From: an uncultured Chloroflexia bacterium
Lineage (GTDB): Bacteria > Chloroflexota > Anaerolineae > JAAYZQ01
DNA: 64,000 nt
NCBI GenBank assembly: GCA_963700285.1
Contig: CAVOXA010000006.1
Span: 96,001-160,000, forward strand
Reading direction: 5' to 3'
Positions 5,180-51,700 of the stretch are shown piece by piece. The position numbers and the translations under genes were made by a program. The notes beneath the pieces were generated by a model, which made no database searches, was not told the DNA's origin, and was given only the letters and a program-made list of their open reading frames with translations. Each line of letters begins with the position of its first letter. Positions within the stretch are counted from its first letter, which is position 1.

Positions 5180-5470
5180 GTGACAGAAGAACCCAAACTG
5201 GTTTGTGTTCAAAAATGCTACGGCATGGATGTCGCCCAGATCTTTAAGGCCAAGCTGGAGGTCATGGATATCCCGGCGCTGCTGGAATATGACAGCGCCG
5301 GCAAGCTCTTTGGCCTGACCATCGATGGTCTGGGTGAAGTGCGGGTGATGGTACCGGAATCCTACGCCGCCGAGGCCGGTGCGCTGCTGTCTGATGCAGA
5401 AATCCCAGATGCGGACGCAACGGAAGACTCTGGGACTACCCTCGACGAAGGCGCTGCTACAGGTTCATAG
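5180..5470 (+). CDS. DUF2007-like (PII-like) putative signalling protein
   Basis: GTG after GGAGG; AQIFKAKLE..DIPA..GLGEVRVMVPE..A.EA. Confidence 0.75.
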   Translation: MTEEPKLVCVQKCYGMDVAQIFKAKLEVMDIPALLEYDSAGKLFGLTIDGLGEVRVMVPESYAAEAGALLSDAEIPDADATEDSGTTLDEGAATGS

Positions 5471-5892
5471 GGCAACGCTTTTGGCACCGTCGAAGCGCGC
5501 TGAAGCGCGCACTACGAACGAAGGCGCTGCTACAGGTTCATAGGGCAACGCTTTTGGCGCCGTCGAAGCGCGCTGAAGCGCGCACTACGAACGAAGGCGC
5601 TGCTACAGGTTCATAGGGCAACGCTTTTGGCGCCGTCGAAGCGCGCTGAAGCGCGCACTACGAACGAAGGCGCTGCTACAGGTTCATAGGGTAACGCTTT
5701 TGGCACCGTCGAAGCGCGCTGAAGCGCGCACTACGAACCAAGGCGCTGCTACAGGTTCATAGGGCAACGCTTTTGGCACCGTCGAAGCGCGCTGAAGCGC
5801 GCACTACGAACGAAGGCGCTGCTACAGGTTCATAGGGCAACGCTTTTGGCACCGTCGAAGCGCGCTGAAGCGCGCACTACGAACCAAGGCGC
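5447..5892. repeat. Tandem array of six 73-bp units containing a GTAG-class REP palindrome
   Basis: Unit starts 5447, 5520, 5593, 5666, 5739, 5812 (partial unit at 5885); each holds GCGCGCTGAAGCGCGCACTACGAAC. Confidence 0.97.
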
Positions 5893-27748: not shown

Positions 27749-27888
27749 TGCGCACTTGGCGCTCTCTGGCGCTAAAGCGCCTACTACGAACCTGGCCGTC
27801 CTTGCCAAGGTCCCCCAGCGGTAGCCATTGATCGGCTATCACACCACAGCGCCTACTACGAACCTGGCCGTCCTTGCCAAGGTCCCCC
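27741..27888. repeat. Degenerate GTAG REP pair plus 41-bp direct duplication
   Basis: GTTTGTAGTGCGC...GGCGCTAAAGCGCCTACTACGAAC; AGCGCCTACTACGAACCTGGCCGTCCTTGCCAAGGTCCCCC at 27776 and 27848. Confidence 0.8.
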
Positions 27889-33077: not shown

Positions 33078-33253
33078 CCAAGACTGTTCGCTGTCCAGAA
33101 CAATCAGATCCGTGTTCAGAATAGTCAGTGGTAAGACTCTGATCCAGGCTTGTTCATGTAGATTCAGAAGGAGGTATGCCTATAAACTTGGCCTTTCGAC
33201 GGTATGTTCCAAGATCGCAGAATACAAACAAAATTGAGGGAGGAGACTCAAAG

Positions 33254-34462
33254 ATGAAAAGGACATTTGCCATCCTTACCGTTCTGCTGCTGCTGAGCAC
33301 AGTGCTGGCAGCCTGCGACATCGGCGGATCAAAGTACGAGTGCACCGATCCCTTGGGCTGTGTCACCTACGCCAAGGACGAGCCGATCCGCATCGCCAGC
33401 TCGCTGGTCATTAGCGGGCCCAATACCGAACTGGGCATGGACTCCCAGCATGGCGTCGACATCGCCGGCGAATTCCGCGGCGAGGTTGCTCGGCCATACG
33501 GTCGAATTCCAGCACGAGGACGACCTCTGCAGCGCAGAGGGTGGGCAGACCTCGGCGCAAAAGATCGTTTCCGACCCCACCATCGTGGGCATGATCGGCA
33601 CAAGCTGCTCCGGCGCCGGCGTGCCTGCCGCCAAGATCATCTCTGACGCTGGCATGGTGATGATCTCACCATCCAACACATCCCCAGCCCTGACCGATCC
33701 GGCACAGCACCAGGCAGGGTACCTGCGCACGGCCCACAACGATACCGTGCAGGGTGCGGCCATGGCCAAGTTCGCCCTGGAGGAATTGGGTGTAACCAAA
33801 GCCGCCGCCATCCACGACGGCGACCCCTACACCGAGGGCCTGGCCACCGTGTTCGCCGACTCGTTCAAAGAGATGGGCGGCGAGATCGTAGCCTTTGAGG
33901 CCGTCGGCAAGGGCGACACCGACATGCGCCCCGCGCTCAAGAGCGTGGCCGAGGCCGGCCCGCCCGAGTTCATCTACTACCCCATCTTTATCGCCGAGGG
34001 TGCAGCCATCACCACCCAGGCCCGTGAAGTTGCCGGCCTGGAAGAACGCCATTCTCTCCGGTGCCGACGGCATCCAGTCGCCCTCCTTCCTGGAGGCCGC
34101 TGGAGAGGCCGTCCGAGGGCATGTACGTCTCCGGCCCGGACCTGAGCTTCTCCAACGCGCTGTACCAGGACTTTCTGGCCACGTACCAGGAGAACTATGG
34201 CACCGCGCCCACGGCCCCCTTCCACGCCCACGCCTTTGATGCCACCAACATGATCCTTGATGCCATCGAAAAGGTCGCCGTGGTCGAGGACAATGGCACG
34301 ATCCATATCCCGCGGCAGGCTCTGCGCGACGCCCTCTTTGCCACCTCAGGGATGGAAGGCATCACCGGCACCATCACCTGTGATGAGAACGGCGACTGCG
34401 CAGACCCCAAGATCGCGGTTAGCCAGGTCGAGAACGCCGAGTTTGTGAGGATTTGGCCCTAG
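33254..34462 (+). CDS. livK: Branched-chain amino acid ABC substrate-binding lipoprotein (frameshifted in this sequence)
   Basis: Lipobox LAAC; GTSCSGA, ISPSNTSPALT, LRTAHND..QG, HAFDA, GITGTITCDENGD over three frames. Confidence 0.88.
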
Positions 34463-34544
34463 CGCCTTGCGGTAACTGTGACGCAGGCGTCTCGCTAAAC
34501 AACTGTTAGACCCAGACGTCTCGCGGATCAACACAAACGGAATA

Positions 34545-34568
34545 GGCCCGGGGCGTACGCCCCGGGCC
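34545..34568. terminator. Perfect 24-bp palindrome after livK (terminator or mRNA stabiliser)
   Basis: GGCCCGGGGCGTACGCCCCGGGCC. Confidence 0.5.
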
Positions 34569-34599
34569 CATCGTCCGAAACCCCAGCCTGGAGAATGCT

Positions 34600-35675
34600 A
34601 TGCGAGCAACGCTTGAGGGACATCGACTGGATAGGCGCTCGTTCTGTGGGTCTTTAGGGCCGTCATCATCATCGCCATGATCTGGGGCGCGGCAGCCACC
34701 ATCCTCAGACAAGGAAAACCCCCTATCCCTGAACGAGTTCCTGGGTTATCTGGTGGACGGCATCTCACAGGGCAGCCTCTACGCCCTGATCGCCCTGGGC
34801 TACACCCTGGTCTACGGCGTCCTGTTCATGATCAACTTTGCCCATGGCGAGTTCTTTATGTCGGGAGCCATGACGGCGACCATCTTTGTGGCCATCCCCC
34901 TGAGCGAATCCGGCTTTCTGGACGCGTATCCCGTCCCGGGACTGCATCATCTGCGGTCTGGTGGCGGCGGTCATCTCGGTTGGCGTCGCCCTCCTGACGG
35001 AGCGTATCGCCTACCGGCCGCTGCGCAAGGCGCCCCGCCTCATCCCCCTGATCACGGCCATCGGCGCATCTTTCTTCTGGCAGTACTTTTTCCGGGGCCT
35101 GTATGGCGGTCAGATCGTGGCCTTTCCCCGAGATCGAGCCCCTGACCGGGTCTGGTCCAGGTTCTTTGGCATCGAGATCCTCAAGAAACAGATCGTCGTC
35201 ATCGGCGCCGCAGCCATCTTGCTGCTCGGCCTCAATTACTTTGTGTACCGTACCAAGACAGGCAAGTCCATGCGGGCTGTCGCCGAGGACAAGGACGTCG
35301 CCGCCCTGATGGGCATCGACGTCGATCGGGTGATCACCATCACCTTTGCCGTAGGCGCGGCCATGGCCGGGGCAGCCGGAGTCCTATACGGCCTGCTCTT
35401 TCGCCAGACGCACTTTTTCATGGGTTTTATCCCCGGGATCAAGGCCTTCACCGCCGCCGTTCTGGGCGGCATCGGCAGCGTACCTGGGGCGGCCCTGGGC
35501 GGCCTGCTCCTGGGCATCTTTGAGTCGGTGGGCCCGCGGCTCGTACTACAGGGCCTGGGCATCCCGGCCAGTCTACCAGCTCCGGGACGTCATCGCCTTC
35601 CTCATGCTGGTCCTGGTGCTCATCTTCCGGCCGCAGGGCATCCTGGGCGAGCGTCTGACCGAGAAGAAAGCGTGA
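34600..35675 (+). CDS. livH: Branched-chain amino acid ABC permease (frameshifted)
   Basis: YALIALGYTLVYGVL..INFAHGE, GKSMRAVAED, KAFTAAVLGGIGS, RPQGILGE. Confidence 0.88.
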
Positions 35676-35687
35676 GGAGGAGGAGCC

Positions 35688-37426
35688 ATGTTTGAATCCA
35701 CTCGTTTCGACTGGGGTCATCCCATCCGCTTCGGCCTCATCTCCGGCATCATCGCCCTGAGCCTCAGCGCCATCGGCATGGTCGAGGCCTTTGGCACCCG
35801 GGATCTGATCACCAACGTGCTGAGCCTGGGCTACGTGCTGCTCTTTGCAGCACCGGCCGGTGCCGGCTACCTCTCGGCCCAGGCCAATGAAGGCGGTCGC
35901 AAGTGGCAACTGGTTGCCGGTGGTCTCATCGCCGGGCTGATCTCCGCCATCCCCCTCATCGGCCTGATCATCCTGGCCAGCCAGGTGAACCTCCGCGAGC
36001 TGGGGCTGGTCAACATTTCCCCGGCTCTCATTGAGATGCTGACCTTCGACCTGGGCCTTGCCGCCGGCTCTCTGGTACTGGCCGTGTTGATGGGTCTGGT
36101 GGGCATGGCAGGCGCGGCGATAGAGATCATGCCCGGCCGCATCCGCCGCCCGGTCCTGATTGCCCTGCTGATGGTCTTTGCCGTGGGCATGTTCTCCGAG
36201 ATCGTCATCCGCGTCATGCGCAAGCTCGTTGGTGTTGGCTTTGCCAACCTCTTTTTCAGCGGCAAGGCACTCAAGCTTTGGTCCGCAATCGTCCTCTTTG
36301 TCCTGACCATCGTCTTTGTGATCTGGTGGGATGCGCGCAGTGCCAAAAGACAGAAACGAGTCAGCACACGCACCCCTGTTCAGCAGAAGCGGGCCCGAAC
36401 CATCGCCCTCGTTGGCGGTGTCATCCTAATGCTGGCCCTGCCGATCTTTATGGACCCCTATCTGGCCGAAGTGGTCGACCAGGTGGGCCTCTATGTCCTC
36501 ATGGGCCTGGGTCTGAACATCGTGGTCGGTTTTGCCGGCCTGCTGGACCTGGGCTACGTGGCCTTTTTCGCCATCGGCGCCTATACCATGGGCGTGCTCA
36601 CCTCCGACAGCGCCCTGGGCATCGGCGGCATGTCCTTTTGGGTGGCGCTGCCTCTCTGCGTCGGCGCGGCAGCAGTGGCCGGCCTCCTCCTGGGTGTCCC
36701 TGTATTGCGGATGCGCGGTGATTATCTGGCCATCGTGACGCTGGGCTTTGGCGAGATCATCCGTATCCTGGTTCTGTCCGACGTGGCCAAACCCGTGCTC
36801 GGCGGCGCCCAGGGCATCCTGCTGATCCCCAAACCCAAGCATCTGGGGATTTGAACTGGTGGGACCTAGCAGAGTTCTACTATCTCATTGTCGCTGGCTG
36901 TCTGCTGGCCGCCTTTGTGTCGTGGCGCCTGCGCGACGCGCGGCTCGGCCGCCAATGGATGGCCATGCGCGAGGACGAGGACGTGGCCGAGGCGGTGGGC
37001 ATCAAGCTGGTCAACACCAAGCTGCTGGCCTTTGCTATTGGCGCCGCCTTTTCCGGGCTGTCGGGCGCCATCTTTGCCACCCGCTTGAGCTCCATCTTTC
37101 CCCACAGCTTCAACCTGCTGGTCTCCATCAACGTGCTCTGTCTCATCATCGTCGGCGGCATGGGCAGCCTGCCCGGCGTGGTCGTAGGCGCCCTGGTGCT
37201 GGTGGGCATGCCCGAACTACTGCGCGAGTTCGCCGAGTACCGGCTCATGATCTATGGCGCGCTGCTCATCGTCATGATGCTCGTCCGCCCGGAAGGACTC
37301 TGGCCCTCGCCCGATCCGCAAGCGCGAGCTTCACGCCCACGAGGAGCACTCGAGGGACCTGGCATAGCTATCCGGCTGCCGGACGCTGATGTTCAGACCC
37401 AGCAACATCCCATCGTGAGGGTATGA
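35688..37426 (+). CDS. livM: Branched-chain amino acid ABC permease with N-terminal TM extension (frameshifted)
   Basis: GLNIVVGFAGLLDLGYVAFFAIGAY, RGDYLAIVTLGFGEI, AMREDEDVAEAVGI. Confidence 0.88.
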
Positions 37427-37429
37427 CAA

Positions 37430-38220
37430 ATGGCTGAGACTCCAAACTCGATCATCCTGGATGCCCAAAGTGTCACAAAGCGCTTCGGCGGCTTGACGGC
37501 GGTCAGCCAGTTCGACGTACGAACTGAACGAGGGTACGATTGCCAGCATCATCGGCCCCAACGGTGCGGGAAAGACGACCTTTTTCAACTGCGTCACCGG
37601 TTTCTACCAGCAATGACGAGGGGACCATCACTTTCAACGACCACGTGATCAACGGGCCGGTCGCCGGACCAGATCACGCGCACCGGCATTGCCCGCACCT
37701 ACCAGAACATCCGCCTCTTTTCCAACATGACGGCCATGGAGAACATCCTGGTGGGCATGGAACCACAGCTCAAGGCCGGGTGGCTGGGCGCCATCTTTGG
37801 TACACGGCGTACTCGAAAAGAGGAGGCCGAGGCGGTACAGGAAGCCGACAAGGTGCTCGATTTGTTGGCCTCCGGGGCCAGGGCGACCTCCTGGCCAAGA
37901 ACCTGCCCTACGGCGCCCAACGCCGGCTGGAGATCGGCCGGGCCCTGGCCGGAAAGCCCAAGCTGCTCTTGCTGGACGAGCCGACGGCGGGCATGAACCC
38001 CTCGGAGACAGTGGAGGTCATTGGCTTTATCCGCCATTTGCGCGACGAGCTGGGCATCACCATCCTGCTGATCGAGCATGATATGCGCGTGGTCATGAGT
38101 ATCTCGGAGCAGGTGACGGTCCTGGACTATGGTGAAAAGATCGCCGAAGGAACACCGGCCGAGATCCAAAGCAACCCGAGGGTGATCGAAGCCTATCTGG
38201 GAAGGGGGGCTGCGGACTAA
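37430..38220 (+). CDS. livG: Branched-chain amino acid ABC ATPase (frameshifted)
   Basis: [49 protein letters not shown]. Confidence 0.88.
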
Positions 38221-38221
38221 T

Positions 38222-38936
38222 ATGGCACTGCTCGAAGTCAACGACATCCACACCTATTATGGCGCCATCCACGCCCTAAAGGGCATCTCGATCCAGGTCG
38301 ACGAAGGCGAGATTGTGACCCTCATCGGCGCCAACGGCGCCGGCAAGAGTACCACGCTGAATACCATTTGCGGCATCCTGCGCCCGCGGCAAGGCAGCAT
38401 CTACCTGGAGGGCGAGGCCATCAACGAGCTGCGCGCCCACGAAATCGTCCTGCGCGGCGTGTCCCAGTCCCCAGAGGGTCGCCGGGTCTTTAGCCGGCTG
38501 ACGGTGACCGAGAATCTGGAGATGGGCGCCTTTGCCAGGAAGGATAAGGACGGCGTGAAGGCCAGTATGGAGCGGGTCTTTACGCTCTTTCCCCGGCTGA
38601 AGGAGCGGCACAAACAGGTGTCCGGTACCCTGTCTGGCGGCGAGCAGCAGATGCTGTCCATCGGCCGGGCCATAATGGCCAATCCGCGCCTGCTCCTCCT
38701 GGACGAACCCTCTATGGGGCTGGCGCCGATCCTGGTCGAGGCGATTTTCGACACCGTACGCGAGATCAACGAACAGGGCACCACCATCCTGCTCGTCGAG
38801 CAGAACGCGCTGATGGCTTTCTCGGTAGCACAGCCGGGGTTATGTCATGCAAACTGGAGAGATCGTCCTGCACGACACGGCCGAGGCGCTGCAGGAGAAC
38901 GAAATGGTGCGCAAGGCCTACCTGGGCGGAGAATAG
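38222..38936 (+). CDS. livF: Branched-chain amino acid ABC ATPase (frameshift near 3' end)
   Basis: GANGAGKST, PEGRRVF, LSGGEQQM, VEQNA; natural end VRKAYLGGE* at 38936. Confidence 0.9.
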
Positions 38937-38973: not shown

Positions 38974-39005
38974 GGAGGCGGCTCTTGGAGCCGCCTCTCT
39001 CCTTT
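38974..39005 (+). terminator. Terminator-like hairpin after livF
   Basis: GAGGCGGCTC TTG GAGCCGCCTC then pyrimidine tract. Confidence 0.6.
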
Positions 39006-39015
39006 GCAGCCAACC

Positions 39016-40643
39016 GTTCATAGTGCGCGCTTCAGCGCGCTTTCTCTGCCCTGCCCCAAGACTCAAACCACGGCGCTGAAGCGCCGACTACCAACCGGGG
39101 CTACCCAAGCAACCTCCTGTTCGTAGTGCGCGCTTCAGCGCGCCTTCTCTGCCCAGCCCCAAGACTCAAACCACGGCGCTGAAGCGCCGACTACCAACCG
39201 GGGCTACCCAAGCAGCCAACCGTTCGTAGTGCGCGCTTCAGCGCGCCTTCTCTGCCCTGCCCCAAGACTCAAACCACGGCGCTGAAGCGCCGACTACCAA
39301 CCGGGGCTACCCAAGCAGCCTACCTGTTCGTAGTGCGCGCTTCAGCGCGCCTTCTCTGCCCTGCCCCAGGACTCAAACCACGGCGCTGAAGCGCCGACTA
39401 CCAACCGGGGCTACCCAAGCGGCCTCCTGTTCGTAGTGCGCGCTTCAGCGCGCTTTCTCTGCCCTGCCCCAAGACTCAAACCACGGCGCTGAAGCGCCGG
39501 CTACGAACCGGGGCTACCCAAGCAGCCTCCTGTTCGTAGTGCGCGCTTCAGCGCGCTTTCTCTGCCCAGCCCCAAGACTCAAACCACGGCGCTGAAGCGC
39601 CGACTACCAACCGGGGCTACCCAAGCGGCCTCCCGTTCGTAGTGCGCGCTTCAGCGCGCTTTCTCTGCCCTGCCCCAAGACTCAAACCACGGCGCTGAAG
39701 CGCCGACTACGAACCGGGGCTACCCAAGCGGCCAACCGTTCGTAGTGCGCGCTTCAGCGCGCCTTCTCTGCCCTGCCCCAAGACTCAAACCACGGCGCTG
39801 AAGCGCCGACTACGAACCGGGGCTACCCAAGCGGCCTCCTGTTCGTAGTGCGCGCTTCAGCGCGCTTTCTCTGCCCTGCCCCAAGACTCAAACCACGGCG
39901 CTGAAGCGCCGACTACGAACCGGGGCTACCCAAGCGGCCAACCGTTCGTAGTGCGCGCTTCAGCGCGCTTTCTCTGCCCTGCCCCAAGACTCAAACCACG
40001 GCGCTGAAGCGCCGACTACGAACCGGGGCTACCCAAGCGGCCTACCGTTCGTAGTGCGCGCTTCAGCGCGCCTTCTCTGCCCAGCCCCAAGACTCAAACC
40101 ACGGCGCTGAAGCGCCGACTACGAACCGGGGCTACCCAAGCGGCCAACCGTTCGTAGTGCGCGCTTCAGCGCGCCTTCTCTGCCCAGCCCCAAGACTCAA
40201 ACCACGGCGCTGAAGCGCCGGCTACGAACCGGGGCTACCCAAGCGGCCTCCTGTTCGTAGTGCGCGCTTCAGCGCGCTTTCTCTGCCCTGCCCCAAGACT
40301 CAAACCACGGCGCTGAAGCGCCGGCTACCAACCGGGGCTACCCAAGCGGCCAACCGTTCGTAGTGCGCGCTTCAGCGCGCTTTCTCTGCCCTGCCCCAAG
40401 ACTCAAACCACGGCGCTGAAGCGCCGGCTACGAACCGGGGCTACCCATGCGGCCAACCGTTCGTAGTGCGCGCTTCAGCGCGCCTTTCTCTGCCCTGCCC
40501 CAAGACTCAAACCACGGCGCTGAAGCGCCGGCTACGAACCGGGGCTACCCATGCGGCCAACCGTTCATAGTGCGCGCTTCAGCGCGCTTTCTCTGCCCTG
40601 CCCCAAGACTCAAACCACGGCGCTGAAGCGCCGACTACGAACC
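39016..40643. repeat. Tandem array of 16 x ~103-bp REPIN/BIME-like units (inverted GTAG REP pair per unit)
   Basis: Unit starts 39016, 39119, 39222, 39326, 39429, 39532, 39635, 39738, 39841, 39944, 40047, 40150, 40253, 40356, 40459, 40563; GTTCGTAGTGCGCGCTTCAGCGCGC ... GGCGCTGAAGCGCCGACTACGAAC. Confidence 0.98.
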
Positions 40644-41203
40644 TAGGGCCCTTCCTGCACAAGCCAGGGGTAGTTGGTGAAGGTAGTCGCTCGAAAGCCA
40701 TCTGCGCACTCATCCTCAATGACCTCCAGTGAGAGCCCTCCCCCATCCAGCGTCCACCTGTAGCTGCCGGTAACCTCCATACAATGCGGGTCGTTAAACA
40801 GATGGAGCCGGTCCCCGGAAACAGCAAAGGAGCCCAGGGACCGCCAGCCGCTCAGCGAACGCGTGGAGAATATCCGGTAGATGCCAGCGTCCAGGCGCAG
40901 CAACCACAAACCACCCTCGGCCGGGTAGGGCATGCAGCGCCGGCAAAACGGCCGGACTCCCTCTCGAGGGTCCAATTTGCCGTAGGTACCGTCCAAAACG
41001 GTCTCCCGATGGGGAGGCAAGGGGGTGGTATAGGGGTAGGGCCTCTGTTCCTGCAACCGCGCCCACAAGTCAGGCCAGGCCGGGGTGCCCTCCGGGGCAG
41101 GTGGTTGGGTGGGCGTAGCGTCCGGCGGCGAGCAGGCCGTCGCCAGGACAGCCAAACAAAAGAACACCACAATACGCTGGTACCAGCGCCCGCTTCGCAG
41201 CAC
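40643..41203 (-). CDS. Hypothetical lipoprotein with CxxC
   Basis: Lipobox LATAC; PFCRRCMPY; DPHC..DEC; GTG 41203 after GGAGG (alternative ATG 41215). Confidence 0.7.
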   Translation of the reverse strand: MLRSGRWYQRIVVFFCLAVLATACSPPDATPTQPPAPEGTPAWPDLWARLQEQRPYPYTTPLPPHRETVLDGTYGKLDPREGVRPFCRRCMPYPAEGGLWLLRLDAGIYRIFSTRSLSGWRSLGSFAVSGDRLHLFNDPHCMEVTGSYRWTLDGGGLSLEVIEDECADGFRATTFTNYPWLVQEGP

Positions 41204-41239
41204 GGGTACCTCCATCGTCAAGGGGTAGACGTGTGCACT

Positions 41240-41273
41240 AGACTTCCGAAGTCTAGCAAGACTTTGGAAGTCT
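41240..41273. repeat. Paired AGACTT.CGAAGTCT palindromes
   Basis: AGACTTCCGAAGTCT-AGCA-AGACTTTGGAAGTCT. Confidence 0.65.
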
Positions 41274-41281
41274 GGGCCTGT

Positions 41282-42068: not shown

Positions 42069-45000
42069 ATGAGTGACGATCGCTTCGATGTTGAGGTGAA
42101 TGCCGCTCGCGAGCGATTGGATTGGCTGTCGCAGCGTGTTGGCGACTTGCCAGCGTCCGAGCGGGCGCTGGCGGGAGAGATGTTGGAGGCCTTTGCAGTC
42201 AGCGTAGAGGGACTCCAGGCGGCAGGAGAGGTATTGCAGCAAAAGAACCAAGAGCTGCCGGACATGACCGAGGCCGTGCAGGCAAACTTGGAACGAATGC
42301 GCACCCTGCAGCAGATCAGCCAACAGAATCAATTTCTGCAGACCGTACTGGATTCCTTGGCGCACCCCTTCTACGTCATCAACGTTGCGGACTATACCGT
42401 AGAAGTGGCCAACAATGCAGCCCGCGCAGACCAATTGCAGGGGAAAGCTACCTGTTTTGCCCTGCTGCACGGACGCAGCCGGCCGTGCGAGACTGATAAT
42501 TATCCCTGCCCTCTCCAGGAGCTCCTGAACACGAAAGAGTCCACGGTAGTCGAACATGTGCATTTCGAAAAGGATGGCCACCACCAGTACGTCGAGATCC
42601 ATGCCTTTCCCATTGCCGACTCGGAAGGCAAAGTAACCAAGATGATCGAGTACACCCTGGACATCACCGAGCGCAAGGAAGCCGAGTTGGCTTTGCGCGA
42701 ATCAGAATCACGCTGGCGCTCACTGACCCAGACCTCACCCGACCACATTCTGATGCTGGACACAGACCTAACCGTCCGATTCGCAAACTATGCTTCGCCG
42801 GGTTTAACGATCGACGAACTCGTCGGCAAACCCCTTTACACCTTGGTAGATGAGTTCAGGCAGTCTGAAATCAAAGCCATTCTGGAAGAGGTGCTGCGGA
42901 CCGGAGTCCCGGCCCGCTATGAAACAGTCTATCCTTCCCCCGATGATGGTGACCTCCACTACGAGTCACACGTAGCTCGCCGGATACTCCCTGACACAGA
43001 CCAAGTCGTCGGCCTGACGCTCAGCGCCCGGGACATTACCGAGCGCAAGAGGACCGAGCAGGCGCTGCGCGATAGCGAGGCGAAACTGCGCGCGCTGTTC
43101 GAGATCCTGCCCATCGGGCTCTCCGTCCTGGATCATACCCGCAACATCAAACTCGCGAACCCGGCCCTGGCGGAAATCCTGCGGCTTTCTCACGATGAGG
43201 TGACGAACGGCGCGTATGAGATGCGTACCTACCTCCAGGCTGATGGTAGGGAGATGCAGCCCGGCGACTTTCCCAGCATTCGGGCCGTTCGTGAGCAGCG
43301 GCCTGTCCGCAACGTAGAGATCGGCATGGTGAAGGAGGATGGCGAGCAGATCTGGACCAGCGTCAGCGCCGCCCCGCTGCCCTTTGATGACTGGCGGGTC
43401 ATCGTCGCCACAGCGGATATCACCGGCCTGAAGAGAGCCGAAGTAGATCTGGAGCAGGCGCGCGACGAACTGGAACTGCGCGTCGACAGAACGAACAGCC
43501 GAGTTGCTGCAGCTCAACCAGGTGCTGCGGGCCGAGATTACCGAGCGCCAGCAGGTGGAGGCGGATCTGCGGAGAAGCGAGGAGCGCTTTCGCCAGCTTG
43601 CGGAGCACATCAGCCACGTCTTCTGGATCACCGACTTGGCCGACAATCGATTCTTGTACATCAGTCCCGCCTACGAGGATCTGTGGGCCCAGGCGCGACA
43701 GGCTGGCCTACGAGCAGCCCACCGCTTTTCTCGATGCCGGTGCATCCGGAGGACCGCCAGCGCATGGCGTCAATCCTGGAGATGGGCAGGTGGGAAGAAC
43801 AGATGGGCAGCTTCGGCTCGTGCGGCCTGACGGCTCGCTCGTCTGGGTGCGGGTTCGCGCCTTCCCTGTCCAGGACGAGCACGGCCGGACCTATCGAGTG
43901 GCCGGGATCGCGGAGGAGATCACTGAGCAGGTCCAGGCCGTCCAACTGCTGGAACAGCGCGTAGAAGAACGCACCCGCCAGCTTTCGACGCTGCTGCAGA
44001 TTGCGCAGCAGCATGACCCTGACTCTGGAGCTGGGTCCGCTGCTGGACATGATCCTCGACGGGCTCGATGACGTTGCTGCGTACGATTGCGCCATCATCT
44101 ATGAGCTGGAGAGCGAGGAGCTGGTTGCTCTGGCTCATCGCGGGATCGGCAGCATAGGGAACGCGAGGCACGGAGCTCATCCCACTGGCAGAGTCAGGCC
44201 GTGGCGCAGACGGATCGTTGCCGATCAGGGGCCGGTCCTGATCTCCGATATTCGCGGCCGGACGGACGATAGCCTGCTTGCTCCCCATGTCCGATTGGGC
44301 TTGCTGTGGAATGGCCGTCCCGCTTCGGCTTCGACAGAAGGTGGTGGGGTTATTGATCCTCTATTCGTCCCAGCCGCAGTCCTATTCGTGGCAGCAGACC
44401 GGGTTGCTGCTGGCCCTGGCCAACCAGGCGGCCGTCGGCATTGAGAATGCCCAGTTGTACGAGCGAACGCGCAGCCCTGGCCGCGGTAGAGGAACGACAG
44501 CGTCTGGCTCGCGACCTGCACGACGCGGTCAGCCAGACTCTCTTTTCGGCCAATATCATCGCCGAAGCGTTGCCCCGCCTTTGGGATCGGGATCCGGAAA
44601 GCGTGCGCAGGCGTCTGCCGCAATTGCACCACTTGACCTCTGGGGCGCTGGCCGAGATGCGCACCTTGCTGCTAGAGCTGCGGCCGAACGCGCCTGGTCG
44701 ATGTGAAACTGAGCGAGCTGCTGCAACAAGCCGTCGATGCCTTCTCCGGCCGGACTCGCAGACCGTCGTATCTCTGACGCTGTCAGGCCAGCGGCGCCTG
44801 CCGGCAGAGGTCCAGGTTGCCCTGTACCGCATTGCCCAGGAAGCATTGAACAACGTGGCCAAACACGCCAAGCGCCGCAGAGGTCGACGATTCATCTCCA
44901 GATGCGAGCCGGACCGGGTCGAACTGCGCGTCCGGGACGATGGACAGGGCTTTGATCCCGACTAGCGTCTCCTCCGCGTGCATGGGGCTCAATATCCTGC

Positions 45001-45095
45001 GCGAGCGAGCCAGAGGCAATCGGCGCGAACTGGAGGTCTCGAGCCGGCCGGGCGACGGCACCGAGATCGTGGTCGTCTGGACCGAGACGCCCTGA
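42069..45095 (+). CDS. Multi-PAS/GAF sensor histidine kinase, NarX-like HisKA_3 (frameshifted)
   Basis: Repeated PAS/PAC DITERK..E..LR.SE; EERQRLARDLHDAVSQ; YRIAQEALNNVAKHA; DDGQGFD. Confidence 0.88.
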
Positions 45096-45113
45096 AGGAG
45101 AAGGAAGAGATCG

Positions 45114-45785
45114 ATGTCACAACCAAACTCCCACGCGGGTGATGATCGTGGATGACCACGACATGGTACGCAGCGGATTGGCCGTCTTTATCGACACCTT
45201 TGACGACCTGGTTCTGGTTGGCGAAGCCTCGGACGGTGCCGAAGCGGTCCGACCTCTGCGCAGAGGTCCAACCGCACGTGATCCTCATGGACCTGTTGAT
45301 GCCCAGGATGGATGGCGTCGCCGCCACGCGCGCCATCCGCCAGGCCTCACCCGGATATCCAGGTCATTGCCCTCACCAGCTTTCAGCGACCGCGACCTGG
45401 TACAGGGCGCCCTGCAGGCGGGCGCGCTGGGGTACCTGCTCAAGACTGCTTCGATCGACGAACTCGCGGAGGCGATCCGCAACGCGCGCCGGGGCCGGCC
45501 CAGTCTCGCCCCCGAAGCGCTGCAGATCCTCGGTCAGCGCCACCAGCCAGCCACATCAGCCAGGACATGACCTGACCGATCGCGAGCGCGAGGTACTGGC
45601 CCTGATGGCAGAGGGCCTGAGCAATCCTGATATCGCCCGCGCGGCTGACGGTCGAACTGTCCACGGTCAAGACCCACGTCAGCAACATCTTGTCCAAACT
45701 GGAAGTCTCCAACCGCATGGAAGCCGCCGCCTTCGCCCGGGAGCACAAGCTAGTCAATGGGAGGAGCGCGGCCTCCTCCCATTGA
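45114..45785 (+). CDS. NarL/LuxR family response regulator (frameshifted)
   Basis: VDDHDMVRSGL, ILMDLLMPRMDG, LTDREREVL, TVKTHVSNILSKL. Confidence 0.88.
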
Positions 45786-45815
45786 CCGAGTCCAAAATCC
45801 ATCTACTGGCGGACG

Positions 45816-45854
45816 AAAAACCCCTCGGGTGCCCGATGCACCCGAGGGGTTTTT
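45816..45854. terminator. Bidirectional intrinsic terminator
   Basis: AAAAACCCCTCGGGTGC-CCGAT-GCACCCGAGGGGTTTTT. Confidence 0.75.
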
Positions 45855-46053
45855 GTTGTATTCTGAGGATGGCGTAATGCGCTACTCACGCGAATGCTGA
45901 GATCGGATGACGCCCAGAGACCGGTGCTGCTCTGCCAGGTGCTGCAACGCGATCCAGGTGGGGAGAGAATGCGCGGTCCAGGCCCCAATTCTGATGGAGA
46001 GAGCCGGTCTCAAGACCCCTGCCCGAAGCATTGGGCGGAGGAAAGAGGGGAAG

Positions 46054-46599
46054 ATGGTGGATCCGCGCATTCGGGTGATGATCGTCGACGACCACGAGAT
46101 GGTTCGCAATGGACTGAGCATCCTCATCGAGGCTTTCGATGACCTTGACCTGGTGGGTACGGCAACGAATGGACAGGAAGCGATCGAATTGTGTGACAGG
46201 ATCGAGACGGACGTCGTGCTGATGGACCTGGTCATGCCCAAGATGGACGGCATCACCGCCATCCGGATCCTTCGCCAGAGCCATCCGCAGATCCAGCTCG
46301 TGGCCTTGACAAGTTTTGGCGACGAGGAATTCCTGGAGGCAGTAATGAAAGCGGGCGCAGCCAGCTACGTACTCAAGAGCGCCCCAATAGACCAGGTTGC
46401 CAGGGCCATCCGCGCCGCCGCTCGCGCTTCGGCCCCCCTTCTGGATATGGTCCCGCAGGGGGCGGCCCCTGCCTCTGTCAGTCACAAGCCAGGCGGCGGC
46501 CAGTTCAATGAGCGCAGCAAAGTCCCACAGGTCCGAACGGGCATGGACCGGGGGAGATTTCCCACGCCTTCACTTGAGATCAGTTGGAGGCGAATCTGA
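46054..46599 (+). CDS. NarL-type receiver-domain protein, no recognisable HTH
   Basis: VDDHEMVRNGL, VLMDLVMPKMDG, LTSF, YVLK; C-terminus not LuxR-like. Confidence 0.8.
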   Translation: MVDPRIRVMIVDDHEMVRNGLSILIEAFDDLDLVGTATNGQEAIELCDRIETDVVLMDLVMPKMDGITAIRILRQSHPQIQLVALTSFGDEEFLEAVMKAGAASYVLKSAPIDQVARAIRAAARASAPLLDMVPQGAAPASVSHKPGGGQFNERSKVPQVRTGMDRGRFPTPSLEISWRRI

Positions 46600-46688
46600 C
46601 CTGGCCGGCAAAGAGGCCAGCGAATCTGTACGCGGCTGTACGATGATGGATCCTTTCAAGAGAAGAGAAGGAAAAAAGGAGAGATGCC

Positions 46689-49600
46689 ATGCTCACGCGC
46701 AAGTTGCTCGACCGATTACTCGTCGTCTTGATGCTCACTTCCCTGGTGCTGAGTGGCAGCGTGCCCGCGCTCGGGCAAGAGCCAGGCCAGGCATCTGGCA
46801 GCAAGAAGGAAATCAAACAATGGTACAAACAAAAGATGAAAAAGGAGAAGGAAAAGAAGGAGAAGCGGATCACGCCTGCTGACCGGCAGGCCGCGGCCGA
46901 GCGCGCCGCGGCCGGTGGCTTCACGCTTGAAGCGATGTTGGCAGCGGCACCCGCCCTGCCGGGCGAGACGCCCCGCTACTTCAGCCACCCCAACTATGCC
47001 AATAGTCCGCTGCCGGCGGTCACCGGGCACTGCTCCGTGACTACCGCTACGGCCTGTAGCGCCTATACGGACTGCCCGGCAGGCGAATCCTGCGTGGTTG
47101 ATGCCGTCTCCGGCGGCATCCGCAAGTTCGTGGACGGGCTGCCGGGCCTCAATGCCCCAAACAACCTCGGCCAGTACATCCCGGTCGCCGTCCCCGACAC
47201 GACCACCTACCCCGGCTCGGATTACTACGAGATCGCGGTCGTCCAGTACCGGGAGCAGATGCACTCGCGACCTGCCGGGCGACGGGGAACGCTGCTGCGC
47301 GGCTACGTGCAGCTCTCGACGAGCGCCTGCGCGCGCGGGAACCGTTCCAGCTGTCCAACGAGATGCTGGACGGGACATCGGTGCCCACGGGCTACAGCGG
47401 CGTGACCGCGCCCCACTACCTGGGGCCGACGATCGTCGCCACCAAGGACCGGCCCGTGCGCATCCTGTTCCGCAACCTGCTGCCCACGGGCCTGGACGGC
47501 AACCTGTTCATCCCGACCGACGTGACGGTCATGGGCTCGGGCATGGGGCCTGACGTTGGGCGGCATGATCGAGGACACGGCCGGCCAGGGATCCCATGTG
47601 CGGCCAGATCGATCCCGCCACCAGCCTAAAGCCGGTCGGCTGCTTCACCGAGAACCGCGCCACCCTGCACCTGCACGGCGGCATCTCGCCCTGGATCAGC
47701 GACGGCACGCCGCACCAGTGGATCACCCCGGCGGCGAGAGGCCGTACCCCGATGCCGCGGCCGGGGAGAACAAGGGCGTCAGCGTGGCCTACGTGCCCGA
47801 TATGTGGTTCGACGCGCAGCGGCGATACGATTGCCAGTTGCGCGGGCAGCACGACCTGCGCGTGGCCGGCGCCACGAACGATCCGGGCGACGGCGCGCAG
47901 ACCTACTACTACACCAACCAGCAGAGCGCCCGGCTGATGTTCTACCACGACCACGCCTGGGGCATCACCCGCCTGAACGTCTATGCCGGCGAGGCCGCGC
48001 CCTACGTCATCACCGACGACACCGAGCAGGCGCTGGTCGACCGCGGGGCTCATCCCCGGCCCTGCCGACACGATCCCGCTGGTCGTCCAGGACAAGACCT
48101 TTGTGCCGAGCGCCGAGCAGCTCGCCGTGTCAGGACTCGACCTGGGACTATAGCCGCTGGGGCGGCGAGGGCAACCTGTGGCTGCCGCACGTCTACTCGC
48201 CGGCGCAGAACCCGGGCGACGCTTCGGGCGTCAACCAGTTCGGCCGCTGGGCCTACGGGCCGTGGTTCTGGCCGCCTACCCAGAACATCCTCTACCGGGC
48301 CGCTCGCCAACCCGTACTATGACCCGAGCTGCGACCCTGACCACGCGATGGTGCGAGCCGCAGATGATGCCCGGCACGCCCTTCAACTCCATGGGCATGG
48401 AGGCCTTCAACGACACGCCGGTCGTCAACGGCACCGCCTACCCGACGATCACGCTGGAGCCCGAAGGCGTACCGCCTCCGCATCCTGAACGCGGCCAACG
48501 ACCGCTTCTTCAACCTCAGCTTCTATCAGGCCGTCGACGCCAACGGCATCCTGTGCGATGGCACCAACCACTCCGGCGCCGAGAGTCACCGGGGTGGCCT
48601 GCACCGAGGTCGCCCTGAATCCCGCCGAGGTGGCGGCAGCGCTGGACGACCCGCACCGGCGTCTTCCCGACCCCATTGGCCGGCACCGAGGGCCCGAGCT
48701 GGATCCAGATCGGCACCGAGGGCGGCTTCCTGCCGGCTCCGGTGGTCATCCCAGCCCAGCCGACCACCTGGGTCGACCGACCCGACCGTGTTCAACGCCG
48801 GCAACGTGGACCAGCACTCGCTGCTGCTCGGCCCGGCCGAGCGGGCGGACGTGATCGTCGACTTTTCCGCAGTACGCCGGCCAGACGCTGATCCTGTACA
48901 ACGACGCCCCGGCGGCCTTCCCGGCGCGCGACCCGCGCTACGACTACTACACCGGCAACGCCGACCTGACGGACACGGGCGGCGCGCCTCCGACGCTGCC
49001 CGGCTACGGCCCGAACACCCGGACCGTCATGCAGATCAAGGTGAGACGCGGCACCCAGCCCCTGCCTTCGACCTGGCCACCGCTCGAGGCAGCCTTCGCC
49101 CACCAACCCGATGGCTCGGGCGTCTTCGAGTCGGGGCAGCACCCGATCATCGTCGGGCAGGCCGCCTACAACTCGGCCTATGGCACCACCTTCGATCAGC
49201 GGCCGGCAATCCGGATGGGTTCGCGCGGATCACCGACTTTTCGATGACCTTCAAGACGCTGTCCGGCGCAGCAGATGATCGACTTCCCGTTCCAGCCCAA
49301 GGCGATCCAGGACGAGATGGGCGAGGCCTTCGACCGCGAGTACGGCCGCATGAGCGGCAACCTGGGCCTCGAGGTGCCGCTGACGGGCAGCCGGGGTCGC
49401 GCAGAACCTGATCCTGTACCCGTACTCGAACCCGGCCAGCGAGCTGATCGACGCGACCAATCTGCCGATGGCGCTGGATCCCGACGACCCGACCGTACAA
49501 GGTCCGCCGATCTCCGACGGCCAACGACGGGACGCAGATCTGGAAGATCACGCACAACGGCGTGGACACGCACCCCATCCACTTCCACCTGTACGACGTG

Positions 49601-51700
49601 CAGCTGATCAACCGGGTCGGCTGGGACGGGATCATCCGCCCGCCCGACGCCAACGAGCTCGGCTGGAAGGACACGGTGCGCATCAGCCCGCTGGAGGACA
49701 CCATCGTGGCCCTGCGGCCGGTCAGGCCGGTGCTGCCTTGGGACCTGCCCAACAGCGTCCGGCCGCTCAACCCGGCGATGCCGGAGGGCTCGACCGTGGC
49801 GTTCAACAGCACGGATGCGAACGCCAACCCGACCGCTGCCCATCATCGAACCAGATGACGAACTTTGGCTGGGAGTACGTCTGGCACTGCCACATCCTCA
49901 GCCACGAAGAGATGGACATGATGCGGCCCCAGATGGTGGCCGAGCCGCCGCCCGCGGTGACCGACCTGGCGGGGATGTGGGTGAATGACGGTAAAGGCTA
50001 CCAACGGGAATCGGCTGACTTGGACGGACAATTCGATACACGAGACCGGCTTTGACGGTCCGGAGAGGGCTATCTGCAAACGTGCGGACGGTCCCTGGAC
50101 GTGATGCCTTTGGCCACAGTGGGCGCCGACGTCAACGACATACACAGATACGAGCGCCAAAACAGCCGACCGACGTCTACTTCTATCAGGTATTCGCCAT
50201 CAACACGGTCGGCTTTACAGGCGTGCCCGGCTACAAGAACTTGACGGCGACGAGTGTAGGCTCCAACATCGTTGGGATGCCTGGAGGTGTGACTGCCAGC
50301 CGTTCCGGCGGCTCCGACCAACCTGACGGCGCGGTTCAGACTGGCCCCCAGGTCCGGCTGGATTGGACCGATAACGCCAACAACGAGACCAGCTTTGTCA
50401 TCCAACGGGCGGTCGGCGCGGGCGCGTTCTCCGTCCTGGCCTCAGTCGGTGCGAATACCACCACCTACACCGACCTGACCGTGGTGCCCGGCAACACCTA
50501 TAGCTACCGGGTGGCGGCCGTGAATGCGGGGGCCAGTCCGCCTACTCGAACACGGCGTCCGTGGCCGTTAACCCGGTTTCGACGGGCCCGAGCGGCCTGG
50601 TGGCAGCGATTCAGGCTGGACCCAAAGTCCGGCTGGATTGGACCGACAACTCCACCAACGAGACCAGCTTCCTCATCCACCGGGATGACAACGGGGGCGG
50701 CTTCTTCTTCCTTGCCTCAGTCGGTCCGAACATCACCACCTTCACCGACCTGACCGTGGCGCCCGGCAACACCTATACCTACCACGTGGCGGCCGTGAGC
50801 TCGGCGGGCCAGTCTGCCTGGTCGAACGATGCGACCGCGGATGTCTTGGTGCCGGCGGACCCGAGCACCCTGACCGCAACGCTTCAGGCCGGACCCCAGG
50901 TCCTGCTGGATTGGACCGATAACGCCACCAACGAGGATAGCTTTGTCATCCAACGGTCTGACAACGGGGGCGCCTTCGGCACCCTGGCCACTCTCGGTGC
51001 GAATGTCACCACCTACACCGACACGACCGTTGTGGTCGGCAATACCTACGACTACCAGGTGGCGGCCGTGAACGTGGTCGGCTCTTCGAACTATGCTGGA
51101 CCGGCGAACGTGGTCGTGACGGGTGCCCCGCCTGTGCCGGCCGACCCGAGCGGCCTGGGGACAACGGTTCAGGCTGGACCCCAGGTCCTGCTCAACTGGA
51201 CCGATAACGCCAACAACGAGGATAGCTTTGTCATCGAACGGGATAGCGGGGTCGGCTTCTCCGTCCTGACCTCGGTCGGTGCGAATGTCACCACCTACAC
51301 CGACACCTCCGTAGCGGCTGGCGGTAGCTACAACTACCGCGTAGCGGCCGTGAACCTGGGGGGTCAGTCCGGCTGGTCGAACGTGGCGAACGCGGTGGTA
51401 CCGGCGCCCCCGGGCGGCCCGGCCGCCCCGTCGAACGTGACCGCCCAACGCTCGAATCGCCGTGTCTGGATCCGCTGGACCGACAACGCCAACGATGAGA
51501 CCGGCTTTGTCATCCAGCGAGCCAACGATGCCGGCTTCACGGTCAACGTGGTGCCCTACAATGTGCCTGCCAACGACACGAGGTACAGGACGCCCGGCAA
51601 GCTGTCGAACGGCGTGTACTACTTTAGGATACAGGCGGTCAACGGCTCCGGTGCATCTGCATGGGTGACCTCCACGCCGCCCTCCATCACCATAGATTAA
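46689..51700 (+). CDS. Secreted multicopper oxidase (MofA/OmpB-like) with six C-terminal FN3 domains (heavily frameshifted)
   Basis: Signal peptide; HLHGG (~47668), FYHDH (~47940), HPIHFH (49571), WHCHILSHEEMDM (49882); six WTDN..NE..F repeats. Confidence 0.85.

What the first reader, a model, noticed from the sequence alone, without database searches (positions are those of the whole stretch)
39016..40643. 1.6-kb tandem amplification of a REPIN-like unit (16 x 103 bp) between convergent genes
Seen: each unit has two inverted GTAG-tailed hairpins (GTAGTGCGCGC-TTCA-GCGCGC on plus; GTAG(T/C)CGGCGC-TTCA-GCGCCG on minus), giving 32 hairpins in a row; unit termini GTTCGTAG/CTACGAAC can pair. Established: GTAG plus hairpin is the signature of REPs acted on by RAYT (TnpA-REP) HUH nucleases, and REP doublets form BIMEs/REPINs. 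Inference: an unusually long head-to-tail amplification, possibly from rolling-circle-like activity or unequal recombination, with possible roles as a nucleoid/gyrase site, termination barrier or structured RNA. No RAYT lies in the window.
Basis: partly seen in the sequence, partly recalled or inferred. Interest (0 to 1): 0.7.

Follow-up and report, generated by a model that had tools for sequence, protein, structure and literature searches.

The report
Long RAYT-linked tandem REP array
This is a real run of 16 head-to-tail copies of a paired DNA-hairpin repeat (a REP/BIME element) whose likely copying enzyme gene lies elsewhere in the genome; it is a known kind of bacterial repeat, unusual mainly because it and several sister arrays are much longer than at the same sites in a close relative.

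Summary
Confirmed: 16 units of 103 bp (39016-40643), each an inverted pair of GTAG-hairpins, between convergent livF and a lipoprotein-like gene. It is a BIME-2-like REP array. The REP family has 288 copies at 43 loci. An intact 197-aa RAYT on contig C22 is flanked on both sides by arrays of a one-pair variant of this REP; 42 of 48 homolog loci carry related hairpins, 0 of 36 distant RAYT loci carry the family. The same site in a same-genus genome holds 3 units. Other sites are expanded too (47 vs 2, 40 vs 3, 23 vs 5 REPs). Units are mosaics of recurrent variants that avoid the REP core (2/288 vs 51/705 columns). Best reading: RAYT-initiated local duplication plus recombination; the enzymology is inferred. 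Source reads were not found, so 16 is unverified. Tandem BIMEs with variable copy number are published, and this scan noted similar arrays in other genomes. New member of a known kind; only the length and genome-wide expansion stand out.

The parts
39006..40643 (.). Tandem array of 16 REP doublets (15 full 103-104-bp units plus an 80-bp doublet); BIME-2-like
39738..39762 (+). REP-A of unit 8 (example): GTTC, GTAG foot, T, 6-bp stem with TTCA loop
39763..39792 (.). 30-nt inner spacer of the doublet (unit 8); the 80-nt doublet is predicted to fold as one long hairpin, -22.5 kcal/mol as DNA
39793..39817 (-). REP-B of unit 8 (example): inverted partner, GTAG foot, 6-bp stem with TTCA loop
39818..39840 (.). 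23-nt linker between doublets (GTAG side); holds most of the recurrent variants
38222..38936 (+). livF-like ABC ATPase, last gene of a branched-chain amino-acid transporter cluster; the extra base near 38831 is likely an assembly error
38975..38997 (.). 10-bp GC-rich hairpin just before the array, terminator-like on the - strand; present in G001 too
40643..41221 (-). 192-aa lipoprotein-like ORF without NCBIfam hit; its stop codon lies directly before the last REP-B
5445..5892 (-). Second array of the same REP family in the window: 6.1 x 73 bp, one intact REP per unit; 2 REPs at the orthologous G001 site
27769..27791 (-). Single REP of the same family (TTTA loop variant)

Best explanation
The array is a BIME-2-like tandem cluster of REP doublets of a genome-wide REP family, and it likely grew in place from a short ancestral cluster through repeated duplications started by the RAYT encoded on contig C22, then was likely shuffled by recombination between units. 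Shown: the anatomy, the family, an intact HUH/Y1 RAYT gene flanked by this REP family, the 3-versus-16 difference between sister genomes, mosaic units, and conservation of the REP core inside arrays. Inferred from the E. coli TnpA-REP work (PMC3333891, PMC8266576): the RAYT binds the single-stranded GTAG-hairpin in trans, nicks nearby DNA, and host polymerase plus strand transfer add a unit. Inferred: unequal exchange or conversion then reassorts the variants. Any effect on transcription of the two convergent genes would be a side effect, not the cause of the length.
For: RAYT: NF047646 over its cut-off at C22:208259; 197-aa open frame with H85-Y86-H87 and Y145-x3-NP; matches E. coli TnpA-REP 4ER8 at E=1.2e-8; 6 REPs upstream and 44 downstream. 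Link to this REP: the strict family lies within 600 bp at 22 of 48 homolog loci and a stem or loop variant at 20 more, against 0 of 36 distant RAYT loci; the exact REP-A core flanks 7 homologs and REP-B flanks the G001 ortholog. In the family, 4 of the 5 genomes with 15 or more copies carry this RAYT (23 genomes). In-place growth: G001 has 3 diverged homologous units between the same genes. REP dependence: 25 of 32 long-period tandem arrays in the genome carry palindromes of families that flank Y1 genes; recurrent variants fall in REP cores at 2 of 288 columns versus 51 of 705 elsewhere, p=3e-6, over 11 arrays. Stepwise growth with recombination: 14 of 15 units distinct, neighbours more alike (Mantel r=0.52, p=1e-4), 25 of 36 site pairs fail the four-gamete test.
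Against: No cleavage or amplification was observed. The RAYT's own flanks use an A-TTCA-T closing pair, the window array C-TTCA-G. A second REP family is also expanded in this genome (139 vs 60 copies; 43 vs 4 beside its RAYT) although that RAYT is open in both genomes, which fits a host-wide or assembly-wide factor as well. G012 has 50 copies and no match to this RAYT (470 contigs). The neighbour gradient reached p<0.05 in only 2 of 10 arrays. At 11 of 24 orthologous sites G001 has more REPs than this genome, once 12 vs 0. Core conservation could also come from conversion among the 288 copies, and the anchor used favours intact REP-A.
Confidence: 0.62

Rival explanations
1. The RAYT only seeded the REP doublets. 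Length then changed through host processes alone (replication slippage at hairpins, unequal recombination), running higher in this lineage.
For: Mosaic units in most arrays are what recombination gives. Two REP families with different RAYTs are both expanded in G000 relative to G001. Hairpins promoting slippage is established knowledge (recalled).
Against: mutS1 and sbcD are open and over cut-off in both genomes. G001 has its own long array (104-bp period, about 25 units) at a RAYT locus missing from G000, so expansion tracks REP families and not simply the host. Variants avoid REP cores.
Confidence: 0.24
2. The copy number is inflated or scrambled by an error-prone assembly; the true locus has a few units as in G001.
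For: The assembly carries indel errors: 78 frame-shifting indels in 68 kb aligned to G001, and an independent contig lacks the extra base at 38831. No run holding the whole locus was found (best share 0.15). Strain mixing could create mosaic consensus units.
Against: 14 of 15 units differ by recurrent substitutions with a positional gradient. Short-read contigs from two other studies match array pieces of 57-133 nt with 0-1 differences, some crossing the unit junction. G001's assembly also keeps long arrays.
Confidence: 0.07
3. The length is selected for a host function at this site: a barrier to read-through between convergent genes, mRNA 3' protection, or a gyrase/nucleoid binding platform.
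For: The array sits between convergent genes, directly behind one stop codon. REP-A plus its T-rich tail scores as terminator-like in 10 units. E. coli REPs act as context-dependent terminators and stabilisers (bioRxiv 10.64898/2026.03.23.713779, abstract), and BIME-2 binds gyrase (PMC2817692 passage).
Against: The sister genome has 3 units here, and a separate hairpin precedes the array in both genomes. Similar expansions occur at many unrelated sites. The same preprint found no long-range REP-REP contacts (section titles only).
Confidence: 0.07

Closest known systems
E. coli BIME-2 / atypical BIMEs with TnpA-REP (YafM, PDB 4ER8) in a REPtron (PMC3333891)
   Same: Two REP types in inverted pairs, repeated in tandem; copies alike within a locus and different between loci; copy number varies at orthologous sites; the RAYT gene is flanked by arrays; HUH/Y1 enzyme (E=1.2e-8 to 4ER8).
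   Different: Unrelated REP sequence with a short perfect 6-bp stem and no bulge; different RAYT subclass; arrays reach 16-23 units; gyrase and IHF binding untested.
Pseudomonas fluorescens SBW25 REPINs and tandem REPIN clusters (PMC3116915, PMC3337134)
   Same: GTAG-outward doublets that fold into one long hairpin; ordered tandem clusters that include flanking DNA; clusters beside RAYT genes.
   Different: SBW25 clusters reach four or five REPINs and most REPs are lone doublets; here 196 of 288 REPs sit in six arrays of 19-44 REPs, and 25 of 43 loci are single by the strict pattern.
TnpA-Y1 subclass 2.8 (Quentin et al. 2018, PMC6006769)
   Same: HYH motif and proline-rich N-terminus, present in all 38 open homologs aligned; flanked by GTAG REPs.
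   Different: The paper's members were cyanobacterial, with relatives noted in other phyla, and have 'long canonical' REPs; these REPs are short. Placement on a tree was not tested.
Thermomicrobium roseum GTAG-23 repeats (Di Nocera et al. 2013, PMC3733652)
   Same: [quoted passage not shown]
   Different: The GTAG-23 sequence is in a figure I could not see, so identity with this family is untested.

Membership tests
REP / BIME (RAYT-associated) | 5' GTAG followed by a short palindrome | tested here: met
   30 of 32 hairpins carry GTAG, 2 carry ATAG; 6-bp stem with TTCA loop
REP / BIME (RAYT-associated) | High copy number across the genome | tested here: met
   288 copies at 43 loci, 0 in one shuffled genome
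REP / BIME (RAYT-associated) | Extragenic position | tested here: met
   This array lies between two stop codons and holds no long ORF; not checked for all 43 loci
REP / BIME (RAYT-associated) | A RAYT gene flanked by the same REP family | tested here: met
   C22 RAYT with 6 and 44 flanking REPs that differ from the window's REPs by one stem pair; exact window REPs flank homologs
REP / BIME (RAYT-associated) | RAYT with intact HuH and Y-x3-NP motifs | tested here: met
   H85-Y86-H87 and Y145-N149-P150, invariant in 38 of 38 open homologs; 3 of 41 with stops were left out
REP / BIME (RAYT-associated) | RAYT binds and cleaves the single-stranded REP | not testable with these tools
   Needs purified protein
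BIME-2-type array | REP and inverted REP alternating in tandem, uniform within a locus | tested here: met
   Strict +/- alternation; mean 95.4% identity between units
BIME-2-type array | Copy number varies at the same locus between relatives | tested here: met
   16 vs 3 units; 20 of 24 orthologous sites differ in REP count
E. coli BIME-2 in the strict sense | y and z2 REP sequences with a bulged stem | tested here: not met
   Short perfect stems; the bulge is described in PMC8266576 passages
E. coli BIME-2 in the strict sense | DNA gyrase binding and cleavage | not testable with these tools
   Needs an assay
REPIN (mobile doublet) | Doublet folds into one hairpin | tested here: met
   Predicted 21-pair hairpin, -22.5 kcal/mol
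REPIN (mobile doublet) | The doublet moves as a unit to new sites | tested here: inconclusive
   One clean 118-bp presence/absence difference among 6 sites aligned (L221); the direction of change is unknown
TnpA-Y1 subclass 2.8 | HYH motif and proline-rich N-terminal domain | tested here: met
TnpA-Y1 subclass 2.8 | Long canonical REPs | tested here: inconclusive
   REPs here look short; the paper's length definition was not read
TnpA-Y1 subclass 2.8 | Clusters with subclass 2.8 on a tree | not tested
   No reference sequences of the subclass were fetched
CRISPR array | Unique spacers between repeats | tested here: not met
   Units are alike over their whole length

The most novel reading that the evidence does not exclude
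In this lineage RAYT/REP systems act less as dispersers of doublets and more as local amplifiers that build kilobase satellite-like arrays (up to 23 units, several times the 4-5 reported for SBW25). Only units with an intact REP core are propagated, while spacer and linker variants are reshuffled. Such arrays would be common in uncultured phyla but hidden by short-read assembly, and this 2.8-type RAYT with its paired long and short orthologous loci would give a direct handle on how tandem REPIN clusters form.
Probability: 0.3. Interest if true: 0.5.

Novelty: new member of a known kind. Interest (0 to 1): 0.27.

Why it matters
How tandem REP clusters form is still open: models exist (PMC3333891, PMC2817692), but I saw no in-vivo demonstration in the passages read. 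This genome offers matched loci with 2-6 versus 23-47 REPs in two close relatives, an intact RAYT of a little-studied subclass, and a measurable signature (variation excluded from REP cores). That makes it a useful test case. It is not a new kind of element.

Tried and rejected
Pfam PF01797 missed the cognate RAYT: its 4 hits are flanked by other repeats; NF047646 found it. Source reads: no run held half of the locus; the contigs laid are fragments and give no copy number or expression. No RNA contig among those listed covered the array, which proves nothing. Rfam: three weak miRNA-precursor matches far below threshold, taken as chance. A dead RAYT in G001 as the reason for its short arrays: two +1 insertions in about 600 bp against a background of 1.15 indels per kb between the assemblies, so inconclusive. 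Loss of mismatch repair or SbcD: both present in both genomes; mutL and recA were not checked. A fixed 31-32-bp GTAG-to-GTAG distance as a geometric rule: 7 of 32 spacer clusters have it, but all 7 are seeded by G000 or G001 loci and other genomes use 10-18 or 44 and more, so descent explains it as well. A single rolling-circle burst: rejected by unit diversity. An insertion-site consensus: only 1 of 6 aligned sites was clean. CRISPR and coding repeat: no spacers, no long ORF.

Full report
Observation. The array is there as described. TRF reports period 103, 15.9 copies, 96% matches at 39009-40643, and 16 unit starts lie 103-104 bp apart. Each unit is REP-A (25 nt, + strand), a 30-nt spacer, REP-B (25 nt, - strand) and a 23-nt linker; the last unit ends after REP-B. 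The 32 hairpins alternate strictly. Units 1 and 16 have ATAG in REP-A, and 6 of 16 units have CTACCAAC at the doublet end. The 80-nt doublet is predicted to fold into one 21-pair hairpin. On the left is a livF-like gene followed by a separate 10-bp hairpin. On the right, the stop codon of a convergent lipoprotein-like ORF directly precedes the last REP. No Rfam family reaches its threshold.

The REP family. The exact 21-mer occurs 46 times, 32 outside this array. A relaxed pattern that lets the loop-closing pair covary (C-G, A-T, T-A) finds 288 copies at 43 loci and none in one base-shuffled genome. Twenty-five loci are single, and six loci with 19-44 REPs hold 196 copies. Two other arrays have more units than this one: 23.4 x 106 bp on C7 and 18.7 x 106 bp on C10. 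A stricter pattern is found in 8 of 23 genomes of the family, with 256 copies here and 64 in the same-genus G001. An exact 26-mer occurs in 62 stretches of species-representative genomes labelled Anaerolineae, Caldilineaceae, Chloroflexia/Chloroflexota, Thermoflexales, KSB1 and Bacteroidetes, so the host is likely a Chloroflexota (inference).

The enzyme. PF01797 gave four Y1 genes, none beside this REP. NF047646 gave a further hit over cut-off at C22:208259: an open 197-aa frame with 6 REPs upstream and 44 downstream. These flanking REPs close the loop with A-T, the window's with C-G. The protein matches E. coli TnpA-REP (4ER8, E=1.2e-8). In 38 open homologs (3 of 41 with stops left out) HYH and Y-x3-NP are invariant and the N-terminus is proline-rich, the marks given for subclass 2.8 (PMC6006769 passages); I did not test this on a tree. 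Of 48 homolog loci (36-80% identity), 22 have the strict REP family within 600 bp, 20 have a stem or loop variant, and 6 have neither; 0 of 36 distant RAYT loci carry the family. The exact REP-A core flanks 7 homologs and REP-B flanks the G001 ortholog. Four of five family genomes with 15 or more copies have this RAYT; G012 (470 contigs) does not show it, and G013 has it with a different stem. Of five further REP-bearing genomes, three gave a homolog; these may overlap the family set and are not added to it.

History of the locus. G001 has the same two genes with three diverged, homologous doublets between them. I fetched 37 regions around G001's 71 listed REPs; 24 of 39 REP groups had both flanks mapping to one site here. 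This genome has more REPs at 9 sites (47 vs 2, 40 vs 3, 32 vs 6, 23 vs 5, 8 vs 1, 6 vs 2, 6 vs 1, 3 vs 2, 2 vs 1), fewer at 11 (mostly 0 vs 1-2; once 0 vs 12; 6 vs 8 upstream of the RAYT) and the same at 4. Sites were chosen from G001's REPs, which favours G001, and three have one flank under 76% identity. The excess therefore comes from growth at shared sites, not from more sites.

Pattern inside the arrays. Fourteen of 15 full units differ, mean identity is 95.4%, neighbours are more alike (Mantel r=0.52, p=1e-4), and 25 of 36 informative site pairs show all four gametes. This fits stepwise growth with recombination and not one burst or an assembler's copy. Across 10 arrays mosaicism is common, but the gradient reached p<0.05 in only 2. 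Across 11 arrays recurrent variants fall in REP cores at 2 of 288 columns against 51 of 705 elsewhere (p=3e-6); the anchor allowed two mismatches and so slightly favours intact REP-A. Of 32 tandem arrays with period 40 or more, 3 or more copies and 85% or more matches, 25 carry palindromes of families that flank Y1 genes, 4 look coding and 3 are unassigned.

Results against a purely RAYT-specific reading. A second REP family is also expanded here: 139 vs 60 copies, and 43 vs 4 beside orthologous RAYTs that are open in both genomes. G001's copy of the cognate RAYT has two +1 insertions, but background indels between the assemblies run at 78 per 68 kb, so I cannot call it dead. On the other side, mutS1 and sbcD are intact in both, and G001 has its own array of about 25 units at a RAYT locus absent here.

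Artefact check. No public run held the whole locus. Short-read contigs from two studies match array pieces of 57-133 nt with 0-1 differences, some crossing from REP-B through the linker into the next REP-A. This supports the head-to-tail junction but not the number 16, and the source organism of those pieces is not established. One contig lacks the extra base at 38831, so the assembly does carry indel errors.

Comparison with print. I ran four literature searches. From passages only: E. coli BIME-2 occur as tandem copies, uniform within a locus and variable in number between strains, with TnpA-REP models for local amplification (PMC3333891); BIMEs in most RAYT hosts, a third of RAYT genes BIME-associated (PMC2817692); SBW25 clusters of up to four REPINs (PMC3116915) or five, with no mechanism established (PMC3337134); large tandem GTAG clusters, including in T. 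roseum (PMC3733652); recognition and CT cleavage by groups 2 and 3 (PMC8266576); REP persistence tied to an active RAYT (PMC3686654). For bioRxiv 10.64898/2026.03.23.713779 I saw the abstract and section titles. I found no description of this REP family or of arrays of 16-23 doublets in those passages, but I read no supplements or figures, where longer BIMEs may be listed. This scan has noted similar arrays in other genomes (unchecked notes) and nothing matching in this genome.

Verdict. A genuine, long BIME-2-like array of a RAYT-linked REP family. Membership in the REP/BIME-RAYT kind is well supported. The amplification mechanism is inferred: RAYT-started duplication plus recombination 0.62, host-only 0.24, assembly inflation 0.07, selected host function 0.07. 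New member of a known kind; interest 0.27.

Noticed in passing
L001 (G000:C22:117312-120656): A Y1 gene that NCBIfam calls IS200/IS605 transposase is flanked by a GTAG-hairpin array of 170/185-bp units with a repeating 170-185-185 order; its G001 ortholog (75% identity, L024) also has a long array. It looks like a REPtron built on an IS200-like enzyme.
   Followed up: partly
L002 (G000:C22:44743-47976): A RAYT flanked by 78-bp arrays of a palindrome without a directly adjacent GTAG foot; 139 copies at 34 loci genome-wide.
   Followed up: partly
L027 (G001:C4:763334-766585): A RAYT inside about 25 units of a 104-bp repeat; the whole locus is missing at the orthologous site in G000 (C22:74186-74258), which suggests gain or loss of an entire REPtron.
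   Followed up: partly
L003, L004, L032, L034: Four more RAYT-like genes in this genome, three with their own flanking palindromes seen here; L004 is frameshifted.
   Followed up: partly
G000:C22:208750-211120: A shortened 55-56-bp unit with one REP recurs three times in the array downstream of the cognate RAYT, at unit 3, 12 and 23.
   Followed up: no
window 39016 and 40563: The first and last units share an ATAG variant of REP-A that none of the 14 inner units has.
   Followed up: no
L037, L038 and related loci: The exact 26-nt REP occurs many times in records labelled KSB1 and Bacteroidetes; the KSB1-labelled genome has a 41% identical RAYT. This suggests transfer between phyla or binning errors.
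   Followed up: partly
window 41237-41280: Two adjacent short palindromes upstream of the lipoprotein-like gene, also in G001; they resemble in form the inverted repeats beside the L032 gene.
   Followed up: no
window 50305-51395: About four copies of a 273-285-bp repeat at 74-81% identity, likely a repeated protein domain.
   Followed up: no
window 33176-38936 and 42069-50160: Many genes are split by frameshifts (liv transporter, two-component genes, a large secreted protein), likely assembly indels.
   Followed up: partly
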